Source: Escherichia coli
GTDB taxonomy: Bacteria; Pseudomonadota; Gammaproteobacteria; Enterobacterales; Enterobacteriaceae
DNA length: 64,000 bases
NCBI RefSeq assembly: GCF_013122565.1
Contig: NZ_CP053258.1
Direction: 5' to 3' (one strand)
Within the stretch, counting starts at the first letter, position 1. Every line of letters starts with the position of its first letter. Positions 27,847 through 39,821 of the stretch are shown piece by piece. The notes under the pieces were generated by a model. The model saw only the letters and a program-made list of their open reading frames with translations, was not told where the DNA came from and made no database searches. The translations under genes and the position numbers were made by a program.

Positions 27847-30800
27847 TTACATGCCGACAATAGTACCGGTGTTGTCAGTTTCGTTTGCTTCTAACGCTAA
27901 ACCGTAGAAGCCACCGAGAACAGCGTCTTTACCGCTATTCGTAACCTTATTTGCCGATACGCCAGCGACACCATAACTCAGCATATTGAGGTAGTTATAA
28001 ATATTACCGGTGGTTTTAACACCCAGAGAATAATCACCCACAATATTTCCACGGTTATTAATGTCATTCACGGCATTGATCGCGATGGTTTGTCCCAACA
28101 TATTACTGTTGCTGTTGTTGGTAACATACTTCTGCGTATCAATAGTCAGCGCAGTTCCCGCCACAATGTCTTTAAAGTTCTCAACACCGTTCAGGGCATT
28201 AATGGTCAGCGCGTTGTCCGCTGCGATGGCATTACGGTTATACAGCGTGCCTTTCAGAACATTGAAATGCACATCCCCTTTACCGCTGATCCAACCATAG
28301 TTAGTGACGCTGTTATCAACGTTCAGATCTAGGTTTTTGTCAGACGCAATCACGCCCGTGGCGGTATTGTCTTCCAGACGACCATCACTGGCGTTACTCA
28401 ACGACGCCGCATAAACATCGAGATTACCGGCGCTGTAAGTGGTGGCATAGTTGTTGTAGAACATACCAGCCGCACGGATGATGGCATCAGCCCCACTGCT
28501 AAGAAGCGCGCGGGTATTATCCAGCGTTCCCCTGGACAGCAGATTAAGCGGACCATTTTCAGCGATGATGCTGCTGTTATTGTTGTAGACGTTCTGAGCA
28601 GAAAGCGTGACACCTTCTTTACCCACAATGCCACCAACGTTGTCAGTAATACCGAAAACTTCACCGTTATAACGCAGGAAGTTATTCCCGTCGCGGTTTT
28701 CGAGGTTGCCGCCAGCGTTAATAACCAGCTTTTTATTCGCCGCGATCAGCGCAGTGTTGTTGTAAATCGTCGATTTAGCATCGACAGAAACATTCTCACC
28801 GGCAATCAAACCATAGGCGTTGTCTACAATGTTCGCCGTCAGAGTCACGTCGCCCGTTTCAGAGGTCAGCGAGCCCTTAAAACTGTCGTAGTTGCCCGTC
28901 AGTGCCAGCGTGACGTCGTCATAACCACGAATTTCACCGTAGTCGTTGTTCAGATTGCTGCCTTTTACAGACAACACGCCGTTCAACGCATGCAGCTTAC
29001 CGCGGTTGTTACCCACGTTGCCCTTCGAATCGATAATCAGATCGCCTGTCGCTTCGATGGTCGCGTTATTGTTGGCCACGCTATTTGCCGTTAATGCGAC
29101 ATCCCCATAACCCACCATATAGAGATAGTTATACAGGTTGCCTTTGGTTGTCACGTTCAGGTCAACATCACTGACAATGTTGCCACGGTTGTTGATATCG
29201 TTAACCGCGTTAATAACGATATTCTGCCCCACCATATTGCTGTTGGAGTTGTTGGTCACATGGCGATTGGTGTTCATCGTCAGGTCGCCGCCAGCAGAAA
29301 TATCCTTCCAGTTTTCAATACCGTTCAGTGCTGCAATGTCCAACCCCTTTTCAGCCGCAATAGTATTGCGGTTGTACAGGTTGCCATTTTTCACCGTGAC
29401 ATCAACATCACCTTTACCGCTGATCCAGCCGTAGTTGGTAAGGCTATTCACCACTTCCAGTGACAGATTTTTGTCAGATGCAATGAACCCGGTCGCATTG
29501 TTATCGATCATCGTACCGCTGCTGCTGTTTTGCAGCGTGGTCGCGTCGATATCCAGGTTGCCCGCACTCCAGGTGGTAGCGTAGTTGTTGTAATACGTTC
29601 CGCCAACCTGAATAGATGCATCCGCCCCGCTGATGACCAGAGCTCGCGTGTTGTCGAACGTGTTCTGCGCCTGCAGAGTCAGAGGACCATCCTCAGCGAT
29701 AATACGGCTGTTGTTGTTATAGATGTTCTGCCCGGAAAGCTCGATGCCTTCCTTGCCGACCATTCCACCCGTTTGCTGAGGCATGCCGAAGTACTGACCA
29801 TAAGCATTACCGAAGTTATTGCCATCGCGGTTTTCGATACTGCCGCGCGCATTTATCTTCAGTTTTTTGCTGGCCACGATCAGCGCTGTGTTGTTATTGA
29901 CGCCAGACATCGACTCCATCGTGATGTTCTGCCCCATCATGAAGCCGCCGTGGTTATCCACGGAGTTGGCTAACAGGGAGATATCACCCTCTTCAGAGCT
30001 GATCACGCCAATATTATTGGTCAGGCTGCCGCCAACGGCGACTTCAATACCCTGCTTACCGCTGATCCCCCCGGTATCGTTACGCAGAGAGCTTCCCTTG
30101 ATAATCACTTTGCTGTTGGACAGAATTTTGCCCGCATAGTCGTCGATCGTGCTGTAACTTGACAGGGAGACGTTGCCATTAGACGCAATCTGTCCGCCAT
30201 TGTTATTGATGTTGTTCGCACCAATTTCTACGCCGGTATCTGCAATAATGCCCAGAGAGTCAGAACTGCCGGTATCGGCGGTTTTGGTTGAACCATTATT
30301 TACGCTACCTGCCGCACCAATAACGATATGCCCGGTGGACGAACGGATCAGACCTTTGTTGTTATCCACATTACCGTTACTGATAATGGCGATATCGCCA
30401 GTGGTCTGGATATCACCGCTGTTGTTATTCAACGCGCCTGATTCAAGCCCCACATAACCGCCGCGAATCTGACCATTGCTGTTGTTGAGCGTTCCGGTTT
30501 TCAGCGCCACGAGCCCCGCTTCAATCCCGACAGAACTCCCTTTACCAGAGTTAATCAGCGTGGCGTTATTGGTATCAACCGCCAGCATACCTGCTGCGGC
30601 GAGCTTGCCGTTGGTGTTATCAATCGTGCCACTGTTAACGTAGATATCGCCCATCGTAGAGATGTTACCCGCACGGGTATTCACGATAGTATTCTTGTTG
30701 GTATTAAGCGAGATAGTGCCTACAGATGTCACCGTACCGGTGGTGTTATCCAGAGTACCATTTGTTGTCAGGTTGATCGTGCTTGCAGACTGAATCTGGG

Positions 30801-31659
30801 CGTTACTGTTTAACAGGTTACCTTTGGAATCGATGCTGACACCATTAACCCCCCCAGCAATAACGCCGAGGTTGCGAACCCCCACACCTTTCTCGGTGCT
30901 GACCAGACTGATTTTGTTCGCATACATTCCGCCCAGTTTGGCAACATCTACGCTGTAACCGTTACGGGACCCCGTGGCGGATACGCTACCGGTCACCTGG
31001 CCTGCGGCATTAACATAGTTATTGCCAGCAACAACGTTCAGCTCATCGGCAGACACTTTGCCGTTAACTACCACGTTACGGGACAGAATTTCTGTCGGGC
31101 TGGCGTTATCCAGTTTACCGAGCGTAATGGTACCGCCGTTCACGGAGTAACCGGCCAGCTTGTCATCCTGGATATCCGGCGTCCCGGTGGTTAAGGTAAG
31201 TTTACCTGTATTGATTGAACCGCCACCGTTTACAGTAATACCATTCGGGTTGGCAATAATCAGATCCGCTTTATCCCCTGCAACTTCCATCATCCCATTA
31301 ATGGTTGAAGGATTTTTGGAAGTAACCTCATTCAGGATCACCTTCGCCGACCCGGAGGTCAGATTACTGTTTCCCTGAATATTTCCGGCAAGTGAAGTAC
31401 TGGATTCATTAGCGCTGTTATTGAAAACGACACCATTTTTATCAACGTTTAGGTTATCCCAGATATTATGAGATAAACCGCTACCGTTAGGTTTGTTGAT
31501 GTCAACGACTGGCACACCATTGGCGTTATATACCGTTCCATTTTTTATGACTAATCCCGCCGCTTGAGAAGCTACAGGAAAAGACAACATCATAAGTATA
31601 GCAATAGGGGTTAATGCTTTACCCACCGTTGCTTCCTTACTTAAATTTATCATCGCCAC
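27847..31659 (-). CDS. TpsA exoprotein (filamentous haemagglutinin/haemolysin-like), 1270 aa, with internal tandem duplication
   Basis: N-terminal TPS domain with ANPNGI motif; Asn/Gly/Thr-rich beta-helix repeats; no recognisable C-terminal toxin domain. Confidence 0.85.
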   Translation of the reverse strand: MAMINLSKEATVGKALTPIAILMMLSFPVASQAAGLVIKNGTVYNANGVPVVDINKPNGSGLSHNIWDNLNVDKNGVVFNNSANESSTSLAGNIQGNSNLTSGSAKVILNEVTSKNPSTINGMMEVAGDKADLIIANPNGITVNGGGSINTGKLTLTTGTPDIQDDKLAGYSVNGGTITLGKLDNASPTEILSRNVVVNGKVSADELNVVAGNNYVNAAGQVTGSVSATGSRNGYSVDVAKLGGMYANKISLVSTEKGVGVRNLGVIAGGVNGVSIDSKGNLLNSNAQIQSASTINLTTNGTLDNTTGTVTSVGTISLNTNKNTIVNTRAGNISTMGDIYVNSGTIDNTNGKLAAAGMLAVDTNNATLINSGKGSSVGIEAGLVALKTGTLNNSNGQIRGGYVGLESGALNNNSGDIQTTGDIAIISNGNVDNNKGLIRSSTGHIVIGAAGSVNNGSTKTADTGSSDSLGIIADTGVEIGANNINNNGGQIASNGNVSLSSYSTIDDYAGKILSNSKVIIKGSSLRNDTGGISGKQGIEVAVGGSLTNNIGVISSEEGDISLLANSVDNHGGFMMGQNITMESMSGVNNNTALIVASKKLKINARGSIENRDGNNFGNAYGQYFGMPQQTGGMVGKEGIELSGQNIYNNNSRIIAEDGPLTLQAQNTFDNTRALVISGADASIQVGGTYYNNYATTWSAGNLDIDATTLQNSSSGTMIDNNATGFIASDKNLSLEVVNSLTNYGWISGKGDVDVTVKNGNLYNRNTIAAEKGLDIAALNGIENWKDISAGGDLTMNTNRHVTNNSNSNMVGQNIVINAVNDINNRGNIVSDVDLNVTTKGNLYNYLYMVGYGDVALTANSVANNNATIEATGDLIIDSKGNVGNNRGKLHALNGVLSVKGSNLNNDYGEIRGYDDVTLALTGNYDSFKGSLTSETGDVTLTANIVDNAYGLIAGENVSVDAKSTIYNNTALIAANKKLVINAGGNLENRDGNNFLRYNGEVFGITDNVGGIVGKEGVTLSAQNVYNNNSSIIAENGPLNLLSRGTLDNTRALLSSGADAIIRAAGMFYNNYATTYSAGNLDVYAASLSNASDGRLEDNTATGVIASDKNLDLNVDNSVTNYGWISGKGDVHFNVLKGTLYNRNAIAADNALTINALNGVENFKDIVAGTALTIDTQKYVTNNSNSNMLGQTIAINAVNDINNRGNIVGDYSLGVKTTGNIYNYLNMLSYGVAGVSANKVTNSGKDAVLGGFYGLALEANETDNTGTIVGM
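27972..30240. repeat. Two tandem ~1134-bp repeat units inside tpsA (approximate bounds)
   Basis: Antisense ORFs at 28061-28300 and 29138-29434 end in the same SPLPLIQP peptide 1134 bp apart; corresponding TpsA segments (~370 aa each) align with high identity. Confidence 0.7.
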
Positions 31660-31922
31660 TAACGTTTTCCTTATTGATGCTATTCATTTTGGACATGCAG
31701 ATCACTTTTGATGACTCACGGAATATCAGCAAAAATGATTGCGGCAAATCCTATCACCTGGCGCAATAAAAAATCACGAAAAATAAGCTGAAATAAGGAT
31801 TCAAAAAAACAACTAAGAGTTATTGTTTTTTCATCGAACGGCGAAGAACCTAACTTACTAAAACACAATAATTTAAAAGTCCCCCATCCTTGCTCCTTGG
31901 GTGATAAAAAATCCAATTTAGA

Positions 31923-31973
31923 GGATGTCTGAAATGATATGTAGTTTTCTGTACGACATCATTTCAGACATCC
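31923..31973. repeat. Perfect 16-bp inverted repeat ggatgtctgaaatgat / atcatttcagacatcc, 19-nt spacer
   Basis: Read directly; ~265-315 bp upstream of tpsA start within a 1.4-kb AT-rich intergenic region. Confidence 0.9.
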
Positions 31974-33051
31974 GAATAAAACAACAAAGTTGGTGAGTTA
32001 CAATTAATTTAAATCTTATTATTTGATTAACAAAGCATCATCATTACTGCATCTTATTCTCTATATCTTTTACGTCGGGGTAGATTCTTTATGGTCATTA
32101 CGGGCAGGCGACATTTCATTATATTACCATTTGCATTCACGCTTGTAACCCTTAAGAGTTATATAAAAAGGAAAGAGTTCTTGCTCATGGTATTACTGAG
32201 ATCGGATTAACCATGAGGTTAGCTATATAGAGAGCTTTGGCTTTGCGACAATTGGCTTAAGCAGCCACATTATGCCTGGCTTATCGTTGAAAGGGAGAAA
32301 GAAGAGCAAAACGGTTTGGCAAGCTTTCATTCCCATCTAATAGCAATCACCGCTATACATCATCCCTTAACGTATTCTGGTCTTCATAAAAATGTTATTC
32401 TAAATTAAAGATTGTAATGATTTTAATAATGTTGTTATTATTTTGCAACAAATCAATATAACACAATGATTATTCGCGATTTTTTATTAGTTAAGAGGAA
32501 TTGTTTTTACAGATTGCGCTACAATTCCGCTCATTTCTCACCACAGGAAAAGCTGAAGTAATCTTAAATGACTGTATTAACCCTTTTCTCCGCTGCCAGC
32601 ACTCTTAAATATCGTTGTTTTATTCTTATAAAAACGGCTTTTTTGACATAAAAAGTAATAGGTTCAGCCATTATGCAGAATTTACAACCTGAGAAAATCG
32701 CAAAAAACACTCTTATTCAGAATAAAACTCTGTTTATCATCTTTCGGTAAGCATTAAATTACTATATTACCGTTCAACATGAGTATGAATGAAAATTCAG
32801 TTGTTATACATGTGATGAATGTCATATATTGTGCTCATCGATTGCAGGACATCGCTATTCTTTTAGAGATACAGATATCACGCTGTTACTCTCTAATATA
32901 AAGAACACGCAAAGATTAGTTGTGTTACTGCAGTTGTTATGTCGCATATGGAATGCCCATTGTTACATCTTTAGTAAAAAGCTTTATTCACTTTCAAAAT
33001 TTTTACTCCATGAAGATAGGCTGTTTTGCTGCAAGCAATTGAGTTAGTGCA

Positions 33052-33675
33052 ATGAACAAGAACTTACTAACAAGGGTAATTATCATTTCGGATGATCTAT
33101 ATTACCTTCAGGGATTAAGTGCAAAACTAGGTCACCATTATCGTTTTTTTATTGAGTGTTTTTTTTGTTCTCAAAATGCATGCAATAATGACCTAAGTAC
33201 ACTTAGATTTGACAACCGCTTTACAAAAAACGTACTTCTTGTCGCAGTGGATGACGTAAGTATACTTGCAAAACTGCCAGATTTGGCCAGGTTTTTAATG
33301 ATTGTTTCACTAAGAAAGATGAAAAACAGAAATATCTTCTTTTCACTTTCAGAGCAAACATTCATTAGCCGATATATAAAATTGAATAAACTCATTACTT
33401 TGATTAAAAGTACTGATAAAGACCAGCAAGTCAGGCAGGTGACTCTGACAAGGTATGAGTGGGATATCTATTACTTATTTTTTAAGATAGATAACAAAAG
33501 AATATTGCACACCCTGCTAAAAAAGGATGTCAAGTATATTAGTCACTATAAAATATCAGTTTTTAATAAGTTTGAAATTGCTTGTGATAGTGATGGCTTT
33601 TACATTTTCAAGGCACTTATACAGTTAAGGAGATTTACCCGTTTTAAAAACGTCAGATTGTATCAATTGCATTAA
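33052..33675 (+). CDS. Putative transcriptional regulator (LuxR-type C-terminus, tentative), 207 aa
   Basis: AT-rich ORF directly upstream of fimbrial major subunit; weak LuxR-HTH-like C-terminal segment. Confidence 0.35.
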   Translation: MNKNLLTRVIIISDDLYYLQGLSAKLGHHYRFFIECFFCSQNACNNDLSTLRFDNRFTKNVLLVAVDDVSILAKLPDLARFLMIVSLRKMKNRNIFFSLSEQTFISRYIKLNKLITLIKSTDKDQQVRQVTLTRYEWDIYYLFFKIDNKRILHTLLKKDVKYISHYKISVFNKFEIACDSDGFYIFKALIQLRRFTRFKNVRLYQLH

Positions 33676-33717
33676 TTAACTCGTTCTATATTAACTCTAA
33701 ATTTCAAGGATATTAAT

Positions 33718-34278
33718 ATGTTTTCTACTTTCAAAAAAGCAGCTCTGCTGGCAGCTATTGCATTACCTTTTTCAACTATGGCTGCGCCTACAGTCACTTT
33801 TCAGGGTGAAGTAACCGATCAGACCTGTTCCGTAAATATCAACGGTCAAACCAATTCAGTAGTATTGATGCCGACCGTAGCCATGGCTGACTTCGGTGCA
33901 ACTTTAGCTGATGGTCAGAGCGCAGGCCTGACGCCGTTTACGGTTTCTGTGTCTAACTGCCAGGCTCCAACTGGTACAGATCAGGCAATCAACACCACCT
34001 TCCTGGGCTACGACGTTGACGCTAGCACGGGTGTTATGGGAAACCGTGATACCAGCAGCGATGCGGCGAAAGGCTTTGGCATTCAGTTAATGGATTCCAG
34101 CACTTCTGGTAACCCAATAACTCTGGCTGGCGCGACTAACGTACCGGGTCTGACCCTGAAAGTTGGCGATACCGAAGCCAGCTACGACTTCGGTGCGCGT
34201 TACTTCGTTATCGATAGCGCTGCTGCCACTGCCGGTAAAATTACCGCTGTCGCAGAATACACCCTGAGCTACCTCTAA
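33718..34278 (+). CDS. Fimbrial major subunit (FimA-like)
   Basis: Signal peptide, TVTFQGEVTDQTCSV N-terminal motif, ~19 kDa. Confidence 0.8.
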   Translation: MFSTFKKAALLAAIALPFSTMAAPTVTFQGEVTDQTCSVNINGQTNSVVLMPTVAMADFGATLADGQSAGLTPFTVSVSNCQAPTGTDQAINTTFLGYDVDASTGVMGNRDTSSDAAKGFGIQLMDSSTSGNPITLAGATNVPGLTLKVGDTEASYDFGARYFVIDSAAATAGKITAVAEYTLSYL

Positions 34279-34342
34279 TTAATCTACTGGCTGGCAGTAA
34301 ATGTCAGCCAGTATTTCTTTGCACAATTAATAGTGATTTTTC

Positions 34343-35065
34343 ATGGACATGGAAAAGATAAGAATGAACATTTTTGCATATTTACTGGTACTTGTATTTT
34401 CCATGAGCATGAGCAGCAGCGCGTTTGCCAGCGTGGTAATGACCGGAACCCGTATTATTTTCCCTGGTGACGCAAAGGAAAAAACCATCCAGTTGCGAAA
34501 TACCAGCGATCAGCCCTATATCATTAATATCCATGTTGAGGATGAACGTGGTTCTGACAAGAATATACCGTTTATGCCAACCCCGCAGACATTTCGCATG
34601 GAAGCTGCCGCAGGTCAGGCGTTACGCCTGCTCTACACTGGTGATAATTTACCGCAGGATCGCGAGTCTGTTTTCTGGTTTAGTTTCAGTCAACTACCTT
34701 ATCTGAATAAGAACGATAAAAGTCAGAACCAGCTCATCCTGGCCCTGACTAATCGAGTCAAAATTTTCTATCGTCCCAGCTCAATTGTCGGTAAATCCAG
34801 TGACGCGCCAAAAAACCTGACTTACCAAGTAAAACAGAACCGCATTGAAGTGACGAATCCCACGGGCTATTACGTCGTGATTCGCGCCGCTGAACTGCTT
34901 AATAACGGTAAAAAAGTCCCCCTCGCGAATTCCGTCATGATTGCTCCTCAAGGCAAAACTGAATGGACACTACGCACTGGCATCAGCGTCGCTCCCGGTG
35001 CGCAGATTCATTTAGTGACCGTCAATGACTATGGCGTAAATGTCACGTCTGAGCATGCCTTATAA
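34343..35065 (+). CDS. Periplasmic fimbrial chaperone (PapD-like)
   Basis: Signal peptide and typical chaperone N-domain pattern. Confidence 0.8.
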   Translation: MDMEKIRMNIFAYLLVLVFSMSMSSSAFASVVMTGTRIIFPGDAKEKTIQLRNTSDQPYIINIHVEDERGSDKNIPFMPTPQTFRMEAAAGQALRLLYTGDNLPQDRESVFWFSFSQLPYLNKNDKSQNQLILALTNRVKIFYRPSSIVGKSSDAPKNLTYQVKQNRIEVTNPTGYYVVIRAAELLNNGKKVPLANSVMIAPQGKTEWTLRTGISVAPGAQIHLVTVNDYGVNVTSEHAL

Positions 35066-35117
35066 GCTCTTTCCCCTTTTTTGAGCGGTATCCTTTTTCA
35101 CGCACGAGTATGTCGAG

Positions 35118-37640
35118 ATGAATAAATCCGTTGTGTCAATTTCTGCGGCAATATTGGTTTTACTCTGCCAGCCGGTTATGGGGAAAGAAATCTCACCCGC
35201 TACACCGTCAGATGAAGATAACTACACCTTTGACCCGCAACTCTTTCGCGGCAGCAGATTTAGTCAGTCGTCATTGGCAAAACTGACAACTCGTGAGTCT
35301 GTTGCACCGGGTAATTATAAAATGGATATCTACACCAATAATAAGTTGTCAGGCAGTTGGAATGTCACGTTCAAAGAAGCCGCTGATGGTCGCGTTCTGC
35401 CCTGCCTGACGCCTGAAGTCGCGGACGCGATAGGCCTCAAAACAGGGGAAGATAAGGGTGAAAAAGATCCGGTCTGTACCTTTGCTCAGGAACTCGCTCC
35501 CGGCATCACCAGCCAGACACAGTTGTCACAACTACGCCTTGACTTGTCGGTGCCTCAGAGTCAAATGATTAGTCGCCCTCGCGGCTATGTCCCCCCCAGC
35601 GAGCTGGATACCGGAGCATCGCTGGCGTTCATGAATTATATTGCCAACTATTACAACGTTGCCTATTCAGGGCAGAATGCTCATAGCCAGCGTTCGCTAT
35701 GGGCATCATTTAATGGTGGCATCAACCTTGGTGCCTGGCAATATCGTCAGTTATCCAACATGACCTGGGATAATGACAAAGGGAATCAGTGGAACAATAT
35801 TCGTAGCTATTTGCAACGCCCGCTGCCCGCCATAAATAGCCAGTTAATGATGGGGCAGCTTATCACCAGCGGAAGATTTTTCTCTGGACTCAGTTATCAC
35901 GGCGTTAGTCTCGCGACCGATGAACGTATGCTGCCGGACTCCATGCGCGGCTATGCGCCGACTATTCGCGGCGTGGCCGCAACAAACGCCAGAGTCTCGG
36001 TAATGCAAAACGGTCATGAAATATATCAGACCACCGTGGCTCCTGGCCCTTTCGAGATAAACGACCTATACCCCACCAGCTACAGCGGCGATCTGGATGT
36101 CACCGTTACGGAAGCTAACGGCGCAGTCAGTCGTTTCAGTGTCCCCTTTTCAGCCGTACCAGAATCGATGCGTCCAGGAACTTCCCGTTATAACGTGGAA
36201 GTAGGTAAAACGCAGGATAGTGGTGATGACTCGATGTTTGGTGACCTTACCTGGCAGCACGGGATGACTAATACGCTGACATTTAACAGTGGTTCGCGTA
36301 TCGCTGATGGCTACCAGGCGCTGATGCTGGGCGGAGTCTATGGCAGTTCGCTGGGGGCATTTGGGGCAAACCTCACTTGGTCCCATGCGCGTGTTCCCGA
36401 AAGCGAAGCGCAGAGTGGTTGGATGTCGCAATTAACCTGGAGTAAAACTTTCCAGCCTACTTCAACCACCGTCTCCCTGGCAGGTTATCGATACTCTACC
36501 AGCGGCTATCGTGATCTGGCTGATGTGCTGGGAGAGCGTCATGCTGCCAGCAATAAACAGTCATGGGACTCCAGCCAGTGGCGTCAACAGTCGCGCTTCG
36601 ATCTTACGTTAAGTCAGAGCCTTGCGAATTACGGCAACCTGTTTGTGTCAGGTTCAACACAGAACTACCGTGGCGGCAAAAGCCGTGATACACAGCTTCA
36701 GTTAGGTTACAGCAATAGCTTTAGCCATGGCATCAGTATGAACCTTTCCGTCGGACGCCAAAGAATGGGCGGCTATAAAGACAATTCTGATGATATGCAG
36801 ACGGTAACATCCCTTTCATTCTCATTCCCACTTGGCGGCAATGGACCTCGTGTACCAAGTCTTAGCAACAGCTGGACCCATTCAACTGACGGTAGCTCGC
36901 AATTACAAAGCTCGCTAACCGGAATGCTTGATGAAGCACAGACCACCAACTACAGCCTGAACGTCATGCGCGATCAACAATATAAGCAGACGACGCTTAG
37001 CGGAAACATGCAAAAACGTTTTTCACAAACTACCGTCGGATTGAACGCATCGAAGGGCCAGGATTACTGGCAGGCTTCAGGTAACGTACAAGGCGCGATG
37101 GCTGTGCATGGTGGCGGCATTACTTTCGGACCTTATCTGGGTGAAACGTTCGCCCTGGTCGAAGCTAAAGGCGCAGAAGGTGCAAAAGTCTATAACTCCA
37201 GTCAGCTGGAAATTAATGACAGTGGCTATGCGCTTGTTCCGGCAGTAACGCCCTATCGATACAACCGTATATCTCTCGATCCACAAGGAATGGATGGCGA
37301 TGCCGAGTTGGTCGACAGTGAAAGACAGGTAGCACCGGTTGCAGGTGCGGCGGTGAAAGTAATTTTCCGTACCCGTCCTGGTAAAGCGTTGCTGATTAAA
37401 TCCCGCATGGCAGATGGTTCGGAACTGCCAATGGGAGCCGATGTGCTGGATGAGAATAATACAGTCGTCGGTATAGCCGGTCAGGGGGGGCAAATTTACC
37501 TCCGCACAGAACAGACAAAAGGCCACTTGTCAGTTCGCTGGGGTGAAGGTGCTAACGATAGCTGCCAATTGCCCTTTGATATCAGCGGGAAGGACAGCAA
37601 TAGCCCTATCATCCGCCTGAATGAAACCTGTCAGTCTTGA
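35118..37640 (+). CDS. Fimbrial usher, 840 aa
   Basis: Size, signal peptide, usher-typical composition. Confidence 0.85.
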   Translation: MNKSVVSISAAILVLLCQPVMGKEISPATPSDEDNYTFDPQLFRGSRFSQSSLAKLTTRESVAPGNYKMDIYTNNKLSGSWNVTFKEAADGRVLPCLTPEVADAIGLKTGEDKGEKDPVCTFAQELAPGITSQTQLSQLRLDLSVPQSQMISRPRGYVPPSELDTGASLAFMNYIANYYNVAYSGQNAHSQRSLWASFNGGINLGAWQYRQLSNMTWDNDKGNQWNNIRSYLQRPLPAINSQLMMGQLITSGRFFSGLSYHGVSLATDERMLPDSMRGYAPTIRGVAATNARVSVMQNGHEIYQTTVAPGPFEINDLYPTSYSGDLDVTVTEANGAVSRFSVPFSAVPESMRPGTSRYNVEVGKTQDSGDDSMFGDLTWQHGMTNTLTFNSGSRIADGYQALMLGGVYGSSLGAFGANLTWSHARVPESEAQSGWMSQLTWSKTFQPTSTTVSLAGYRYSTSGYRDLADVLGERHAASNKQSWDSSQWRQQSRFDLTLSQSLANYGNLFVSGSTQNYRGGKSRDTQLQLGYSNSFSHGISMNLSVGRQRMGGYKDNSDDMQTVTSLSFSFPLGGNGPRVPSLSNSWTHSTDGSSQLQSSLTGMLDEAQTTNYSLNVMRDQQYKQTTLSGNMQKRFSQTTVGLNASKGQDYWQASGNVQGAMAVHGGGITFGPYLGETFALVEAKGAEGAKVYNSSQLEINDSGYALVPAVTPYRYNRISLDPQGMDGDAELVDSERQVAPVAGAAVKVIFRTRPGKALLIKSRMADGSELPMGADVLDENNTVVGIAGQGGQIYLRTEQTKGHLSVRWGEGANDSCQLPFDISGKDSNSPIIRLNETCQS

Positions 37641-37655
37641 TACAGAGAAAACCCG

Positions 37656-38990
37656 ATGTCTAAATCGACTTTATTACACATTCTGATTAGCTCCATCATA
37701 TTGGTGGCACTAATACAATCATCCGCTTGGGCTAACTGTACAAACACACAGATAGGTCAAACTGAAGATGGTCGGACAGCGCTTATTGAGTTCGGAAAAA
37801 TTAATATGACCGACACCTATTTTGCGCCAGCAGGTTCACTCCTCGCGACAACGGTCGTACCTCCCACTAACTACACATCAGGTGGCGCGACAGGAAGCTC
37901 AGTATTGTGGGAATGTGATGCAACAGATTTGCCAAACATCTATTTTCTGGTCGCTACCAATGGCGACGACCGCGTGGGGGGCTTTTACGATGCAGGCGGG
38001 CCTGATGGTCTGAGTGATGTCTATGCCACCTGGTTCGCTTTTGTCGGTCTCAAGCAGACCATGGCGGGCGTGACGCTTGGTCGTTACTGGAAGAAAGTGC
38101 CCATCACCAGTTATGCCACTCAGGGAACTAAAATCCAGATTCGCTTACAGGATATCCCTCCTCTTCATGCTGAGCTTTATCGCATCAGTACGCTACCTGA
38201 TACATCAGCAACAACAAGTTGGTGCGGTAATAATAATACAGATGGTAGTGGAGTCGGATTCGCAAAACCTTCCGGTACAATCTATAACTGTGTTCAGCCC
38301 AATGCCTATATTCAGCTTTCCGGTACCAGCGGCATTTTATTTGGTCATGATGAGCCCGGCGAAGATAGTTCTGTTCATTGGGATTTCTGGGGTGCTGATA
38401 ATGGTTTTGGTTACGGAATGCGTTCGGCCAATCGACTCTACAACAATGCCACCTGCGTTGCCCGCAGCGCCACGCCGTTAGTATTGCTGCCGACAATTGC
38501 AGAAGCACAACTGAATGCGGGCATGGAAAGTACCGGTAATTTTAATGTCCGCGTCGAGTGTAGTAACTCGGTTCAATCAGGGATTAGCGATACTCAGACA
38601 GCATTAGGAATCCAGGTGTCTGAAGGTGCATATACAGCGGCGCAAAAACTGGGGATTATCAATAGCAACGGCGGCGTCAGCGCCCTGGTCTCTGATAATT
38701 ATGACGCAGCAGAGATGGCAAAGGGCGTTGGGATCTACATTTCTAACAGTGCTCACCCCGATACGGCGATGACGCTGGTTGGTCAACCGGGCATCGCGAA
38801 GTTAACCCCCGGAGGAAATGCAGCGGGGTGGTATCCTGTATTTGAAGGGGCAACATTAGAAGGTGCGACTCACCCCGGATACTCCAGCTATAGTTACTCT
38901 TTTATCGCCCGGTTGAAGAAACTGCCAAATCAGACAGTCAGTGCGGGAAAAGTGCGGGCAACGGCTTATATATTGGTGAAAATGCAATGA
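37656..38990 (+). CDS. Large fimbrial subunit / putative tip adhesin, 444 aa
   Basis: Signal peptide; position after usher; unusually long for a pilin. Confidence 0.5.
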   Translation: MSKSTLLHILISSIILVALIQSSAWANCTNTQIGQTEDGRTALIEFGKINMTDTYFAPAGSLLATTVVPPTNYTSGGATGSSVLWECDATDLPNIYFLVATNGDDRVGGFYDAGGPDGLSDVYATWFAFVGLKQTMAGVTLGRYWKKVPITSYATQGTKIQIRLQDIPPLHAELYRISTLPDTSATTSWCGNNNTDGSGVGFAKPSGTIYNCVQPNAYIQLSGTSGILFGHDEPGEDSSVHWDFWGADNGFGYGMRSANRLYNNATCVARSATPLVLLPTIAEAQLNAGMESTGNFNVRVECSNSVQSGISDTQTALGIQVSEGAYTAAQKLGIINSNGGVSALVSDNYDAAEMAKGVGIYISNSAHPDTAMTLVGQPGIAKLTPGGNAAGWYPVFEGATLEGATHPGYSSYSYSFIARLKKLPNQTVSAGKVRATAYILVKMQ

Positions 38991-39676
38991 AATCCGTTTT
39001 GCTCCTCTTAACCGTCTTGTTCGTACAGTCAGTGGAAGCCGGCATCATGCCGGCTTCTTCACGGATTATTTATCGCGATGGCGATCGGGAAAAGACACTG
39101 ATGCTGGTCAATACCAATGACTATCCGGTACTGGTGCAAAGTTGGGTAGATAATGGTGAAGGTTCCCCAGAATCTGCTTCTCCCCCCTTTGTGGTGCTGC
39201 CACCGGTTTTCCGCCTGGCTGCGAGACGAACCCAGGGGTTGCGGATTATCTATAATCATGACCCACTTCCCCAGGATCGCGAATCTGCATTCTGGTTAAA
39301 TCTTTATGAAATGCCGCCAGAAACTCCCCATCAAGATCCCACACATTTAACGCTGGCAATGAATACGCAACTTAAAATCTTTTACAGGCCAAAATCTGTA
39401 ACTATGACGCCCCAAGAAGCTATGCGTAAAATAAGTTGGCATCTGGGTAACGACGGCAGCAGTAGCTATATTGAGCTTAATAACCCAACACCACTGAATA
39501 TCTCTTTCACCTCCATCAGCATTGGGGCTACAAAGGTGCAGCAAGAAAGCGATATGATGATAAAACCCTTCAGTCAACGACGGTACTGGTTAGCAAGTAA
39601 TAACGTTAGTGGTGTGGTTGCGGCGACATATCTCGATGATAATGGTGCACAGATAAAACAACAATTAGCGCAATAA
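38987..39676 (+). CDS. Second PapD-like fimbrial chaperone
   Basis: Signal peptide, chaperone-like motifs, 4-bp overlap with preceding gene. Confidence 0.7.
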   Translation: MKSVLLLLTVLFVQSVEAGIMPASSRIIYRDGDREKTLMLVNTNDYPVLVQSWVDNGEGSPESASPPFVVLPPVFRLAARRTQGLRIIYNHDPLPQDRESAFWLNLYEMPPETPHQDPTHLTLAMNTQLKIFYRPKSVTMTPQEAMRKISWHLGNDGSSSYIELNNPTPLNISFTSISIGATKVQQESDMMIKPFSQRRYWLASNNVSGVVAATYLDDNGAQIKQQLAQ

Positions 39677-39821
39677 TGCTCTGAGTGGTATGTAAACTCA
39701 TCGCGATGGTTCAACGCTAACGAATAACCACTATACCCACCTGAAGTACCGGAAGTGGAGAAATGACAACATCTCTCCACTCCATTTTCCAGTCAAAACA
39801 CCTCAACGCAGCCAAAAATCG

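What the first reader, a model, noticed from the sequence alone, without database searches (positions are those of the whole stretch)
33052..39676. Chaperone-usher fimbrial operon with two chaperones and an unusually large terminal subunit
The operon encodes major subunit, chaperone, usher, a 444-aa subunit and a second chaperone, preceded by a 207-aa AT-rich ORF that may be a dedicated regulator. The 444-aa protein is large for a pilin and may be a two-domain tip adhesin with novel receptor specificity.
Basis: partly seen in the sequence, partly recalled or inferred. Interest (0 to 1): 0.4.

Follow-up and report, generated by a model that had tools for sequence, protein, structure and literature searches.

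The report
Known loc6 (Type 3-like) fimbrial operon
This is the already catalogued 'loc6 / Type 3-like' chaperone-usher pilus operon of the E. coli O157:H7-type genomic island OI-47. Its 444-residue subunit is predicted to be a conserved two-domain tip adhesin, and the small AT-rich gene in front looks like a LuxR-type regulator, so the locus is ordinary in kind although its ligand is still unknown.

Summary
The locus is not new. It is 99% identical to ECs_1276-1281 of O157:H7 Sakai, inside island OI-47. It is published as 'loc6' and as the gamma4 'Type 3-like' type, and it occurs in about 400 of 5426 complete E. coli genomes.

The 444-aa ORF is not a fusion artefact. More than 300 protein clusters of 415-483 aa exist across many genera. 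In the five distant loci inspected, the gene sits in the same order: pilin, chaperone, usher, large subunit, chaperone.

A high-confidence AlphaFold model (pLDDT 92) matches two-domain tip adhesins, the receptor-binding domains of Abp1D and MrkD, and FimA/FimF-type pilins.

The two chaperones form separate, anciently diverged orthologous groups. The adhesin gene overlaps the second chaperone gene (ATGA), which suggests a dedicated adhesin chaperone.

The 207-aa ORF is a real, fast-evolving gene. Its model resembles RcsB/EvgA-type regulators (receiver-like domain plus LuxR helix-turn-helix). Remote homologues sit next to EAL genes and other fimbrial operons.

Function, ligand and regulation remain untested. 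Interest is low.

The parts
31660..33051 (.). AT-rich (33.6% GC) non-coding spacer between the divergent otpA (TpsA) gene and the 207-aa ORF; presumed regulatory region
   Evidence: Composition. It holds no ORF with a family hit. Promoter-like hexamers are not more frequent than in shuffles. Several imperfect inverted repeats and one perfect 16-nt palindrome (31923-31973) are present. tblastn found no EAL gene remnant.
33052..33675 (+). 207-aa ORF (= ECs_1281, 'hypothetical protein'): predicted degenerate receiver-like domain plus C-terminal LuxR-type four-helix DNA-binding domain; candidate local regulator
   Evidence: It has no Pfam or NCBIfam hit itself. An ungapped 207-aa orthologue at 55% identity lies in a syntenic island, with pN 0.26 against pS 0.79. 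Eight remote homologues at 24-33% identity were found. Three of 11 family members weakly hit GerE, and the family profile weakly hits the RcsB C-terminus. RcsA and FimZ give weak hits. The AF2 model has pLDDT 81.5. Foldseek matches full-length RcsB, EvgA, FixJ, NarL and VpsT. Homologues lie next to EAL genes and upstream of chaperone-usher operons.
33718..34278 (+). Major pilin (186 aa; = ECs_1280)
   Evidence: Pfam Fimbrial 7.9e-14. NCBIfam gives FimF/LpfA-type hits below cutoff. Sakai annotates it as 'major pilin protein'. The signal peptide and the N-terminal strand APTVTFQGEV were read from the sequence.
34285..34313 (+). Strong RNA hairpin with a T-rich tail just after the pilin gene; likely attenuator or mRNA-stabilising element that sets the pilin:assembly-protein ratio
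   Evidence: Terminator-like site. Fold gives dG -20.5 kcal/mol and z -6.4, with 0 of 200 shuffles as stable. The function is inferred.
34364..35065 (+). Chaperone 1 (233 aa from the RefSeq start; an alternative ATG at 34343 gives 240 aa; = ECs_1279)
   Evidence: PapD_N 3e-35 + PapD_C 1e-13. It belongs to the 'first-position' orthologous chaperone clade. It is split by IS1203 in a few O157:H7 strains.
35118..37640 (+). [not shown]
   Evidence: PapC_N, Usher (4.5e-152) and PapC_C. The best NCBIfam match is PRK15248 at 701 bits. It is 33% identical to MrkC over the full length and shows no BLASTP similarity to EcpC. It differs by 4 aa from the Sakai usher, which is catalogued as gamma4 'Type 3-like'.
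37656..38990 (+). 444-aa two-domain subunit (= ECs_1277): signal peptide (residues 1-26), N-terminal putative receptor-binding domain (residues 27-262, nt 37734-38441), C-terminal pilin domain (residues 263-444, nt 38442-38987)
38987..39676 (+). Chaperone 2 (229 aa; = ECs_1276). Its start overlaps the adhesin stop (ATGA)
   Evidence: PapD_N 1e-37 + PapD_C 6e-11. It belongs to the 'second-position' orthologous clade: about 41% identity within the clade across genera, but only 28% to chaperone 1 of the same operon. The overlap was read. The same overlap occurs in L003, L004 and L011.
39751..39783 (+). Possible end-of-operon hairpin between chaperone 2 and the convergent SDR gene (weak evidence)
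   Evidence: Fold z-score -2.6, with 4 of 200 shuffles as stable. The terminator scan did not call it.

Best explanation
This is a classical (gamma4-clade) chaperone-usher pilus operon, the loc6 / 'Type 3-like' locus of island OI-47. Shown by homology: the 186-aa pilin, two PapD-like chaperones, the 840-aa usher, and a 444-aa subunit with a C-terminal pilin domain. Predicted from structure: the 444-aa protein is a two-domain tip adhesin, with an N-terminal beta-sandwich receptor-binding domain of about 235 residues (MrkD/Abp1D-like fold, no sequence relative of known structure) in front of an incomplete pilin domain. Inferred from the established donor-strand-exchange mechanism: the protein appears to have a folded domain where a donor strand would be. 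It should therefore enter the usher first as a chaperone-adhesin complex and end up at the distal tip. The 186-aa pilin then polymerises beneath it. Inferred from the ancient split of the chaperones into two orthologous, position-specific groups and from the ATGA overlap of the adhesin and chaperone 2 genes: chaperone 2 is dedicated to the large adhesin and chaperone 1 serves the pilin. The strong hairpin after the pilin gene probably raises the pilin:machinery ratio. The AT-rich 207-aa first gene encodes a degenerate receiver domain plus a LuxR-type helix-turn-helix. It most likely acts as a local activator or anti-silencer of the H-NS-prone AT-rich promoter region, in the way MatA/EcpR does for the ecp operon, possibly linked to c-di-GMP or Rcs signalling. 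The ligand is unknown. The high conservation of the N-domain across orders points to a widely available target, such as biofilm matrix, abiotic surfaces or a common glycan or protein, rather than a strain-specific host receptor.
For: ORFs and domains.

Identity to the published locus. Literature on the locus.

The five-gene order is conserved in Pseudomonas, Acinetobacter, Dyella, Proteus and Aeromonas.

Adhesin model and fold matches.

The structural genes are under purifying selection (dN/dS 0.04-0.11) against a syntenic copy whose proteins are 72-89% identical.

The chaperones form two clades, about 40% identical within a clade and 30% between. Both appear by eye in the alignment to keep the subunit-anchoring Arg (T/S-R-V/I-I) and Lys (K-I/L-F-Y-R-P) motifs.

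Gene overlap. Hairpin.

Regulator fold and genomic associations.

Literature parallels: cupA1-5 have the same gene roles, plus an EAL gene and MvaT repression. The K-12 annotation of matA-ecpABCDE shows the same six-gene layout. MatA is an H-NS-repressed LuxR-type partner of RcsB.
Against: There is no experimental evidence of pilus production. A loc6 deletion in Sakai did not change binding to spinach roots.

Chaperone specificity is inferred only.

The 207-aa ORF itself hits no HTH family. Profile comparisons to YqeH and MatA are insignificant. Its model comes from 11 sequences.

The finding that the adhesin is better conserved than the usher could be inflated, because the distant loci were chosen by similarity to the adhesin. 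In the locus found through the 207-aa ORF, adhesin (87%) and usher (89%) are about equal.
Confidence: 0.8

Rival explanations
1. The operon is a cryptic, silenced or decaying locus that makes no pilus in present-day strains. The domain architecture is ancestral baggage.
For: A loc6 deletion in Sakai gave no phenotype on spinach roots. The first chaperone is split by IS1203 in a few O157:H7 strains. The locus is only partly present in O145:H28. The AT-rich upstream region is typical of H-NS-silenced horizontally acquired DNA.
Confidence: 0.15
2. The 444-aa protein is not a tip adhesin. It is instead a second polymerising fibre subunit, an assembly terminator or anchor, or an usher-associated factor, as some database names suggest ('fimbrial usher protein StbD', 'outer membrane protein').
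For: NCBIfam labels the StbD model 'fimbrial usher protein'. Sakai annotates ECs_1277 as 'outer membrane protein'. One paper lists cupA1 and cupA4 together as 'major fimbrial subunits'. In ECP, the large subunit EcpD is also reported to polymerise (my recollection).
Confidence: 0.1
3. The 207-aa ORF does not regulate this operon. It may control other targets (for example the divergent otpAB two-partner secretion genes, or genes elsewhere through RcsB), or it may be a non-DNA-binding remnant.
For: It lies between otpA and the pilin gene, so either could be its target. One remote homologue (L007) has an EAL gene but no fimbrial operon next to it. Sequence-level support for an HTH is weak. It evolves 4-5 times faster than its neighbours.
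Against: It lies 42 nt upstream of the pilin gene on the same strand. The 207-aa gene keeps this position in the divergent island. In two independent, different fimbrial operons a remote homologue lies directly upstream of the pilin gene (L006, L008). Its length and reading frame are conserved.
Confidence: 0.25

Closest known systems
[not shown]
   Same: It is the same locus. DNA identity is 99.0-99.9%. The 444-aa protein differs by 2 aa and the usher by 4 aa from Sakai. Neighbours are the same: otpAB, SDR, grvA, the EAL gene, dgcT and pgaABCD. The catalogue entry is in Table S2.
   Different: The window carries a slightly different allele mosaic: chaperone 1 differs by 3% and grvA by 5.4% at the nucleotide level. 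The published descriptions searched do not mention ECs_1281 (the 207-aa ORF) as part of the locus or as a regulator.
Salmonella Stb fimbriae (stbABCDE, gamma4) and Pseudomonas aeruginosa CupA fimbriae (cupA1-cupA5 + EAL gene PA2133)
   Same: The five-gene order is the same: pilin, chaperone, usher, large second subunit, second chaperone (CupA gene roles). The 444-aa protein is homologous to StbD over its whole length. StbC is a gamma4 usher. A Pseudomonas citronellolis locus with 45-62% identical proteins has the same order. CupA is linked to an EAL phosphodiesterase and repressed by the H-NS-like protein MvaT.
   Different: The StbD model score (113 bits) is far below its equivalog cutoff (363), so this is a relative, not Stb itself. 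P. aeruginosa CupA4 did not appear among the 120 best relatives of the Pseudomonas orthologue. Direct orthology to CupA4 is therefore untested.
Klebsiella type 3 fimbriae (mrkABCDF) and adhesin MrkD; Acinetobacter Abp1D
   Different: MrkD is 331 aa, against 444 aa here. The solved receptor-binding domains are 163-187 residues, against about 235 here. The mrk operon has one chaperone and a minor subunit, MrkF. The N-domain here has no significant sequence similarity to them.
E. coli common pilus / Mat operon (matA(ecpR)-ecpA-ecpB-ecpC-ecpD-ecpE)
   Same: The six-gene layout is identical: small LuxR-type regulator, major pilin, chaperone, usher, large adhesin (EcpD, 547 aa), second chaperone. 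MatA is H-NS-repressed and works with RcsB. It is the best functional analogue for how the 207-aa ORF and the second chaperone may work.
   Different: ECP belongs to a different chaperone-usher clade (alpha). The two ushers show no BLASTP similarity. The profile comparison of the 207-aa family with MatA is not significant. The resemblance is one of organisation, not membership.
NarL/FixJ-type regulators and RcsB auxiliary partners (RcsB, EvgA, RcsA, FimZ, MatA)
   Same: The predicted fold of the 207-aa ORF is a receiver-like alpha/beta domain plus a four-helix LuxR-type C-terminus. Its best structural matches are RcsB and EvgA. Weak family hits go to GerE, RcsA and FimZ. It has the same length class (about 200 aa).
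   Different: The ORF itself has no significant sequence hit. The conserved receiver Lys is replaced by an invariant Arg, and the putative acceptor position is Asp or Glu. It is therefore probably not a phosphorylatable response regulator.

Membership tests
Classical chaperone-usher pilus operon | Outer-membrane usher with PapC_N, Usher and PapC_C domains | tested here: met
   Pfam 5.6e-31, 4.5e-152 and 1.8e-21
Classical chaperone-usher pilus operon | PapD-like periplasmic chaperone with both domains and the conserved subunit-anchoring Arg and Lys | tested here: met
   Both chaperones have PapD_N and PapD_C. By eye in the alignment, the R of 'TRIIF'/'SRIIY' and the K of 'KIFYRP' appear present in both and in the orthologues.
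Classical chaperone-usher pilus operon | Secreted pilin with a Fimbrial domain and an N-terminal donor strand | tested here: met
   Pfam Fimbrial 7.9e-14 covers residues 27-185. The signal peptide and the strand APTVTFQGEV were read from the translation. Donor-strand function was not tested.
[not shown]
   The usher differs by 4 of 840 aa from ECs_1278. It has the same flanks: pgaA, dgcT and OI-47 genes. Table S2 lists these ushers as gamma4 'Type 3-like'. I built no usher tree of my own.
Two-domain tip adhesin (FimH/PapG/MrkD class) | C-terminal incomplete-Ig pilin domain | tested here: met
   [not shown]
Two-domain tip adhesin (FimH/PapG/MrkD class) | N-terminal discrete beta-sandwich receptor-binding domain in place of a donor strand | tested here: inconclusive
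   [not shown]
Two-domain tip adhesin (FimH/PapG/MrkD class) | Location at the fibre tip and binding of a defined receptor | not testable with these tools
   This needs immuno-EM and binding assays.
Salmonella Stb fimbriae (equivalog) | Scores above the NCBIfam equivalog cutoffs for StbD and the adjacent usher model | tested here: not met
   PRK15247 (StbD): 113.5 bits against a cutoff of 363. PRK15248 (unnamed usher model numbered next to StbD and StbB; taken to be the Stb usher): 701 bits against a cutoff of 996. The locus is a homologue with the same architecture, not Stb itself.
CupA-type five-gene module | Gene order pilin, chaperone, usher, large subunit, chaperone | tested here: met
   Window and five distant loci. 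cupA1-5 gene roles come from the literature.
CupA-type five-gene module | Orthology of the large subunit to P. aeruginosa CupA4 (PA2131) | not tested
It is absent from the top 120 relatives of the P. citronellolis orthologue.
LuxR/FixJ (NarL-family) transcription regulators (207-aa ORF) | C-terminal GerE/LuxR-type helix-turn-helix detectable by sequence | tested here: inconclusive
   The ORF itself has no hit. Three of 11 family members hit GerE, best E 0.0031. The family profile hits the RcsB C-terminus at E 0.29. RcsA and FimZ hits are weak.
LuxR/FixJ (NarL-family) transcription regulators (207-aa ORF) | Two-domain fold: receiver-like domain plus a four-helix DNA-binding domain | tested here: met
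   The AF2 model has pLDDT 81.5 and four C-terminal helices. Foldseek matches full-length RcsB, EvgA, StyR, FixJ, NarL and VpsT with probability 0.9-1.0. The model rests on a shallow alignment.
LuxR/FixJ (NarL-family) transcription regulators (207-aa ORF) | Canonical phospho-acceptor pocket (DD, D, T/S, K) | tested here: not met
   D14 and D15 are conserved. Residue 66 is Asp or Glu. S86 is conserved. An invariant Arg107 stands where the Lys is expected (with positions assigned from the model).
E. coli common pilus (ECP/Mat) | Homologous usher (EcpC) of the alternate clade | tested here: not met
   BLASTP of the usher against EcpC gives E 1.4. Only the operon layout is alike.

The most novel reading that the evidence does not exclude
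The N-terminal domain of about 235 residues in the 444-aa subunit is a new sequence class of pilus receptor-binding domain. It has no Pfam or PDB sequence relative. It is at least as conserved as the usher across Enterobacterales, Pseudomonas, Acinetobacter, Aeromonas, Xanthomonadales and Burkholderiales. It would recognise a ubiquitous non-host target (biofilm matrix polysaccharide, abiotic surface, or another bacterial surface), making this five-gene module a general 'matrix/biofilm' pilus. In addition, the ECs_1281 family would be an undescribed class of degenerate-receiver LuxR-type regulators that, paired with EAL phosphodiesterases, couple c-di-GMP or Rcs signalling to fimbrial operons.
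Probability: 0.2. Interest if true: 0.5.

Novelty: already known. Interest (0 to 1): 0.2.

Why it matters
The locus lies in a pathogen-associated island (OI-47) of E. coli O157:H7 and O55:H7, and no function has been assigned to it.

This analysis yields concrete, testable reagents:
- A defined putative binding domain (residues 27-262) for ligand screens.
- A predicted pairing of the adhesin with the second chaperone.
- A candidate regulator (ECs_1281) that the OI-regulator review read here and the literature searches do not mention.

If the conserved N-domain binds a common matrix or surface component, this would explain why the same five-gene module is kept across very different Gammaproteobacteria. 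It would also bear on the environmental and plant persistence of EHEC. As it stands, the finding is a correct reading of a known, ordinary type of operon.

Tried and rejected
1. Fusion artefact for the 444-aa ORF: rejected. Relatives of 415-483 aa are found in more than 300 clusters, five distant loci are syntenic, and a single confident model was obtained.

2. IS disruption as a general feature of O157:H7: rejected. An IS1203 insertion in chaperone 1 was seen in strain ECP19-798 and is flagged in the rows for three more O157:H7 strains, but 376 of 379 genomes, including EDL933 and Sakai, have an intact chaperone 1 gene.

3. Sequence-level identification of the N-domain: nothing significant from phmmer or profile searches of PDB, or from Pfam.

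4. Sequence-level identification of the 207-aa ORF: nothing significant from Pfam or NCBIfam on the ORF itself. hhalign against K-12 YqeH (E 0.012, probability 3.5%) and MatA (E 0.044, probability 1.2%) was not significant.

5. EAL-gene remnant upstream of the 207-aa ORF, as in its relatives: none. The only EAL homologue is the vmpA-like gene at 42701-44311.

6. Invertible promoter switch: the inverted repeats in 31600-33800 are imperfect, or have an arm inside the ORF. No recombinase gene lies within the region inspected (about 27.8-48.8 kb). I did not pursue this further.

7. Promoter and terminator scans were no richer than shuffles, apart from the post-pilin hairpin.

9. Looking for P. aeruginosa CupA4 among relatives of the Pseudomonas orthologue: not in the top 120.

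10. The Nuccio & Baumler 2007 review could not be read.


Full report
**Observation.**
- Pfam identifies the 186-aa product as a fimbrial pilin.
- The 240-aa and 229-aa products are PapD-type chaperones with both domains.
- The 840-aa product is a complete usher (PapC_N, Usher at 4.5e-152, PapC_C).
- The 444-aa product has a Fimbrial domain only at residues 263-444.
- The 207-aa product has no hit.
- The 207-aa ORF (31.7% GC) and the 1.4-kb spacer before it (33.6% GC) are much more AT-rich than the structural genes (46-51% GC).
- RefSeq starts the first chaperone at 34364 (233 aa), not at the first ATG at 34343.

**Identity of the locus.** The 7.1-kb stretch matches 401 of 5426 complete E. coli genomes at 95-99.9% identity. 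Most are O157:H7 and O55:H7, with scattered animal and human isolates. The neighbours are:
- a divergent two-partner secretion pair and a fatty-acid/polyketide-like cluster on one side;
- an SDR gene, grvA, a FidL-like gene, an EAL gene, dgcT and pgaABCD on the other.

This is O-island 47. In Sakai the genes are:

| Sakai gene | Product |
|---|---|
| ECs_1281 | 207-aa hypothetical protein |
| ECs_1280 | major pilin |
| ECs_1279 | chaperone |
| ECs_1278 | usher |
| ECs_1277 | 444-aa protein, annotated 'outer membrane protein' |
| ECs_1276 | chaperone |

The window differs from Sakai by 2 aa in the 444-aa protein and 4 aa in the usher.

The literature already names the cluster:
- It is 'F18 (OI-47)' in an O145 comparative study.

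One O157:H7 strain I inspected has IS1203 inside the first chaperone gene, and three more are flagged. This is rare: 376 of 379 genomes carrying that gene have it in one piece, EDL933 and Sakai included.

**The 444-aa subunit.**
- *It is not a fusion artefact.* A database search gave 311 relatives. The 120 listed are almost all 415-483 aa and 51-92% identical. They come from Enterobacterales, Pseudomonas, Acinetobacter, Aeromonas, Dyella and Burkholderiales.
- *Homology.* NCBIfam aligns the whole protein with Salmonella StbD (9.5e-33), but far below the equivalog cutoff. The usher's best model is the one numbered next to StbD.
- *Model.* An AlphaFold model built from a 57-sequence alignment is confident throughout (pLDDT 92, pTM 0.83).
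- *Foldseek.* The best full-length hits in the PDB are two-domain tip adhesins (CupB6, LpfD, CsuE, PapG). These are followed by many FimF, FimG, FimA and PapA pilins that match about 185 columns.
- *N-terminal part.* The part before the pilin domain (residues 27-262) is about 50-70 residues longer than those solved binding domains (163-187 residues). As a profile it has no sequence hit in PDB or Pfam. A profile comparison with MrkD from pOLA52 aligns only the N-terminal 150 residues, and weakly (E 0.0017, probability 15%).

I therefore accept 'two-domain tip adhesin' as the best reading. The assignment of the N-domain to the MrkD/Abp1D fold class is a prediction, because the tools returned no residue mapping.

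Conserved Cys pairs fit the usual disulfide pattern (C28/C87, C190/C212, C267/C302). So does the absence of an alternating hydrophobic N-terminal strand. They imply that the protein can accept a donor strand but cannot give one, which by the donor-strand-exchange mechanism places it at the tip.

**A conserved five-gene module.** In five distant genomes the relatives of the 444-aa protein sit in the same order: pilin (176-185 aa), chaperone, usher, large subunit (429-462 aa), chaperone. The genomes are Pseudomonas citronellolis, Acinetobacter ihumii, Dyella sp., Proteus mirabilis and Aeromonas veronii. The literature gives the same roles for P. aeruginosa cupA1-cupA5, followed by an EAL phosphodiesterase gene and repressed by the H-NS-like MvaT. 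Stb is a gamma4 system. I could not compare directly with CupA4. It is not among the 120 best relatives of the Pseudomonas orthologue, so the E. coli locus may belong to a sister subfamily.

**Two chaperones.** An alignment and NJ tree of the twelve chaperones from six loci split them cleanly into a first-position clade and a second-position clade. Mean identity is 40-41% within each clade and 30% between them. The two E. coli chaperones are only 28% identical to each other. By eye in that alignment, both clades appear to keep the Arg and Lys that anchor a subunit's C-terminus. The duplication is therefore old and both copies have been retained, which argues against redundancy. The adhesin stop codon overlaps the start of the second chaperone (ATGA), as it does in L003, L004 and L011. 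My inference is that the second chaperone is dedicated to the large adhesin.

**Conservation pattern.**

| Protein | Identity to the five distant loci |
|---|---|
| 444-aa protein | 56-65% |
| Usher | 49-59% |
| Pilin | 45-62% |
| Chaperones | 32-50% |

Within the 444-aa family, the N-domain (63% mean pairwise identity) is better conserved than the pilin domain (57%). This is unusual, since ushers are normally held to be the most conserved component (statement quoted).

The distant loci were chosen by similarity to this very protein, which could bias the comparison. In a syntenic island from a gut metagenome, whose proteins are 55-89% identical to the window's and which was found through the 207-aa ORF, the usher (89%) and adhesin (87%) are about equal. 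There, changes in the N-domain cluster at residues 27-43 and 186-213, while residues 121-185 are invariant. Either way, the binding domain is not hypervariable. That speaks against a strain-specific 'novel receptor' and for a common target.

**Other operon features.** A 12-bp-stem hairpin with a T-rich tail follows the pilin gene (34285-34313). Its dG is -20.5 kcal/mol and z is -6.4. This is the position where chaperone-usher operons commonly place an attenuator. dN/dS against the divergent island is 0.04-0.11 for the five structural genes, with no indels beyond a single-residue gap in the pilin. The operon is therefore maintained by selection.

**The 207-aa ORF.**
- *It is a real gene.* The divergent island has an ungapped 207-aa orthologue at 55% identity, with pN 0.26 against a saturated pS of 0.79.
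- *Remote homologues.* An exhaustive HMMER search found eight more proteins of 195-223 aa at 24-33% identity.
- *Sequence evidence for a DNA-binding domain is weak but consistent.* Three of 11 members hit GerE (best E 0.0031). The family profile aligns its residues 126-178 with the RcsB helix-turn-helix. A few members hit RcsA, FimZ or MalT models.
- *Model.* AlphaFold (pLDDT 81.5) predicts an alpha/beta receiver-like N-domain and four C-terminal helices. Foldseek matches full-length RcsB, EvgA, StyR, FixJ, NarL, VraR and VpsT.
- *Receiver pocket.* The pocket is degenerate, with DD conserved, Asp/Glu at the acceptor position, and an invariant Arg in place of Lys. Phosphorylation is therefore unlikely.
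- *Context is informative.* In four loci a stand-alone EAL gene lies immediately upstream of the homologue. In two loci a different chaperone-usher operon lies immediately downstream. In two loci a GrvA-like/FidL-like gene pair lies divergently alongside. The window contains the same four components, rearranged.
- *Position.* The ORF ends 42 nt before the pilin start codon.

I conclude that it is probably a local LuxR-type regulator. The closest working analogue is MatA/EcpR, the first gene of the ecp operon. MatA is an H-NS-repressed partner of RcsB, and the ecp operon has the same six-gene layout. It is not a family member by any test I could run, and the ECP usher is unrelated by BLASTP. 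I found no paper mentioning ECs1281. A review of O-island regulators lists only GrvA for OI-47.

**Verdict.** The locus is a known, catalogued chaperone-usher operon of a known architectural type. What this analysis adds is at the annotation level:
- domain boundaries and a fold class for the large adhesin;
- evidence for position-specific chaperone orthology;
- a post-pilin hairpin;
- a candidate regulator family.

Nothing here is categorically new. Ligand, expression conditions and regulation remain open and need experiments.

Noticed in passing
window 41292-42104 (+) and 42109-42600 (+); L007 5377-6724; L008 5435-6767: grvA (ToxR-like winged-helix regulator) and the following FidL/YqeJ-like gene form a pair that is 33% identical to K-12 YqeI (with YqeJ). 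GrvA-like/FidL-like pairs lie divergently next to the EAL-plus-LuxR-like cassette in unrelated genomes. This suggests a conserved four-gene regulatory neighbourhood around some fimbrial operons.
   Followed up: partly
window 42701-44311 (-), 44409-45839 (-), 46355-48778 (+): A 536-aa EAL-domain gene (vmpA-like, ECs_1272), the diguanylate cyclase dgcT/ycdT and pgaA lie just beyond the operon. The fimbrial island therefore sits in a c-di-GMP and PNAG biofilm neighbourhood.
   Followed up: partly
window 27847-31659 (-) and upstream (L001 1-10860): A 1270-aa filamentous-haemagglutinin-type TpsA (OtpA) with its ShlB/FhaC-type partner, followed by an ACP/KS/FabZ/SDR/aminomethyltransferase cluster, is transcribed divergently from the fimbrial operon. 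One paper relays the suggestion that OtpA may be accessory to loc6.
   Followed up: no
window 33052-42600 versus Sakai L016: Divergence from O157:H7 Sakai is mosaic: grvA 5.4%, the FidL-like gene 3.5%, chaperone 1 3.0%, otpA 2.3% and the usher 1.1%, but only 0.2-0.5% in the pilin, adhesin, chaperone 2, 207-aa ORF and SDR genes. This suggests recombination patches within OI-47.
   Followed up: no
L002 4564-6578 (O157:H7 strain ECP19-798): An IS1203 (IS3 family) insertion splits the first chaperone gene in a few O157:H7 strains. O145:H28 RM13516 carries only 69% of that gene.
   Followed up: partly
window 31923-31973: A perfect 16-nt inverted repeat (GGATGTCTGAAATGAT, 19-nt spacer, ATCATTTCAGACATCC) lies in the AT-rich spacer, about 260-310 nt upstream of otpA. 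The exact sequence is present in the 99.9% identical strain, but no exact match was found in any of the other 16 loci held.
   Followed up: partly
L015 1-7600: One remote homologue of the 207-aa ORF lies on a contig with a TraI relaxase and a phage-type integrase, so the regulator family also travels on mobile elements.
   Followed up: no
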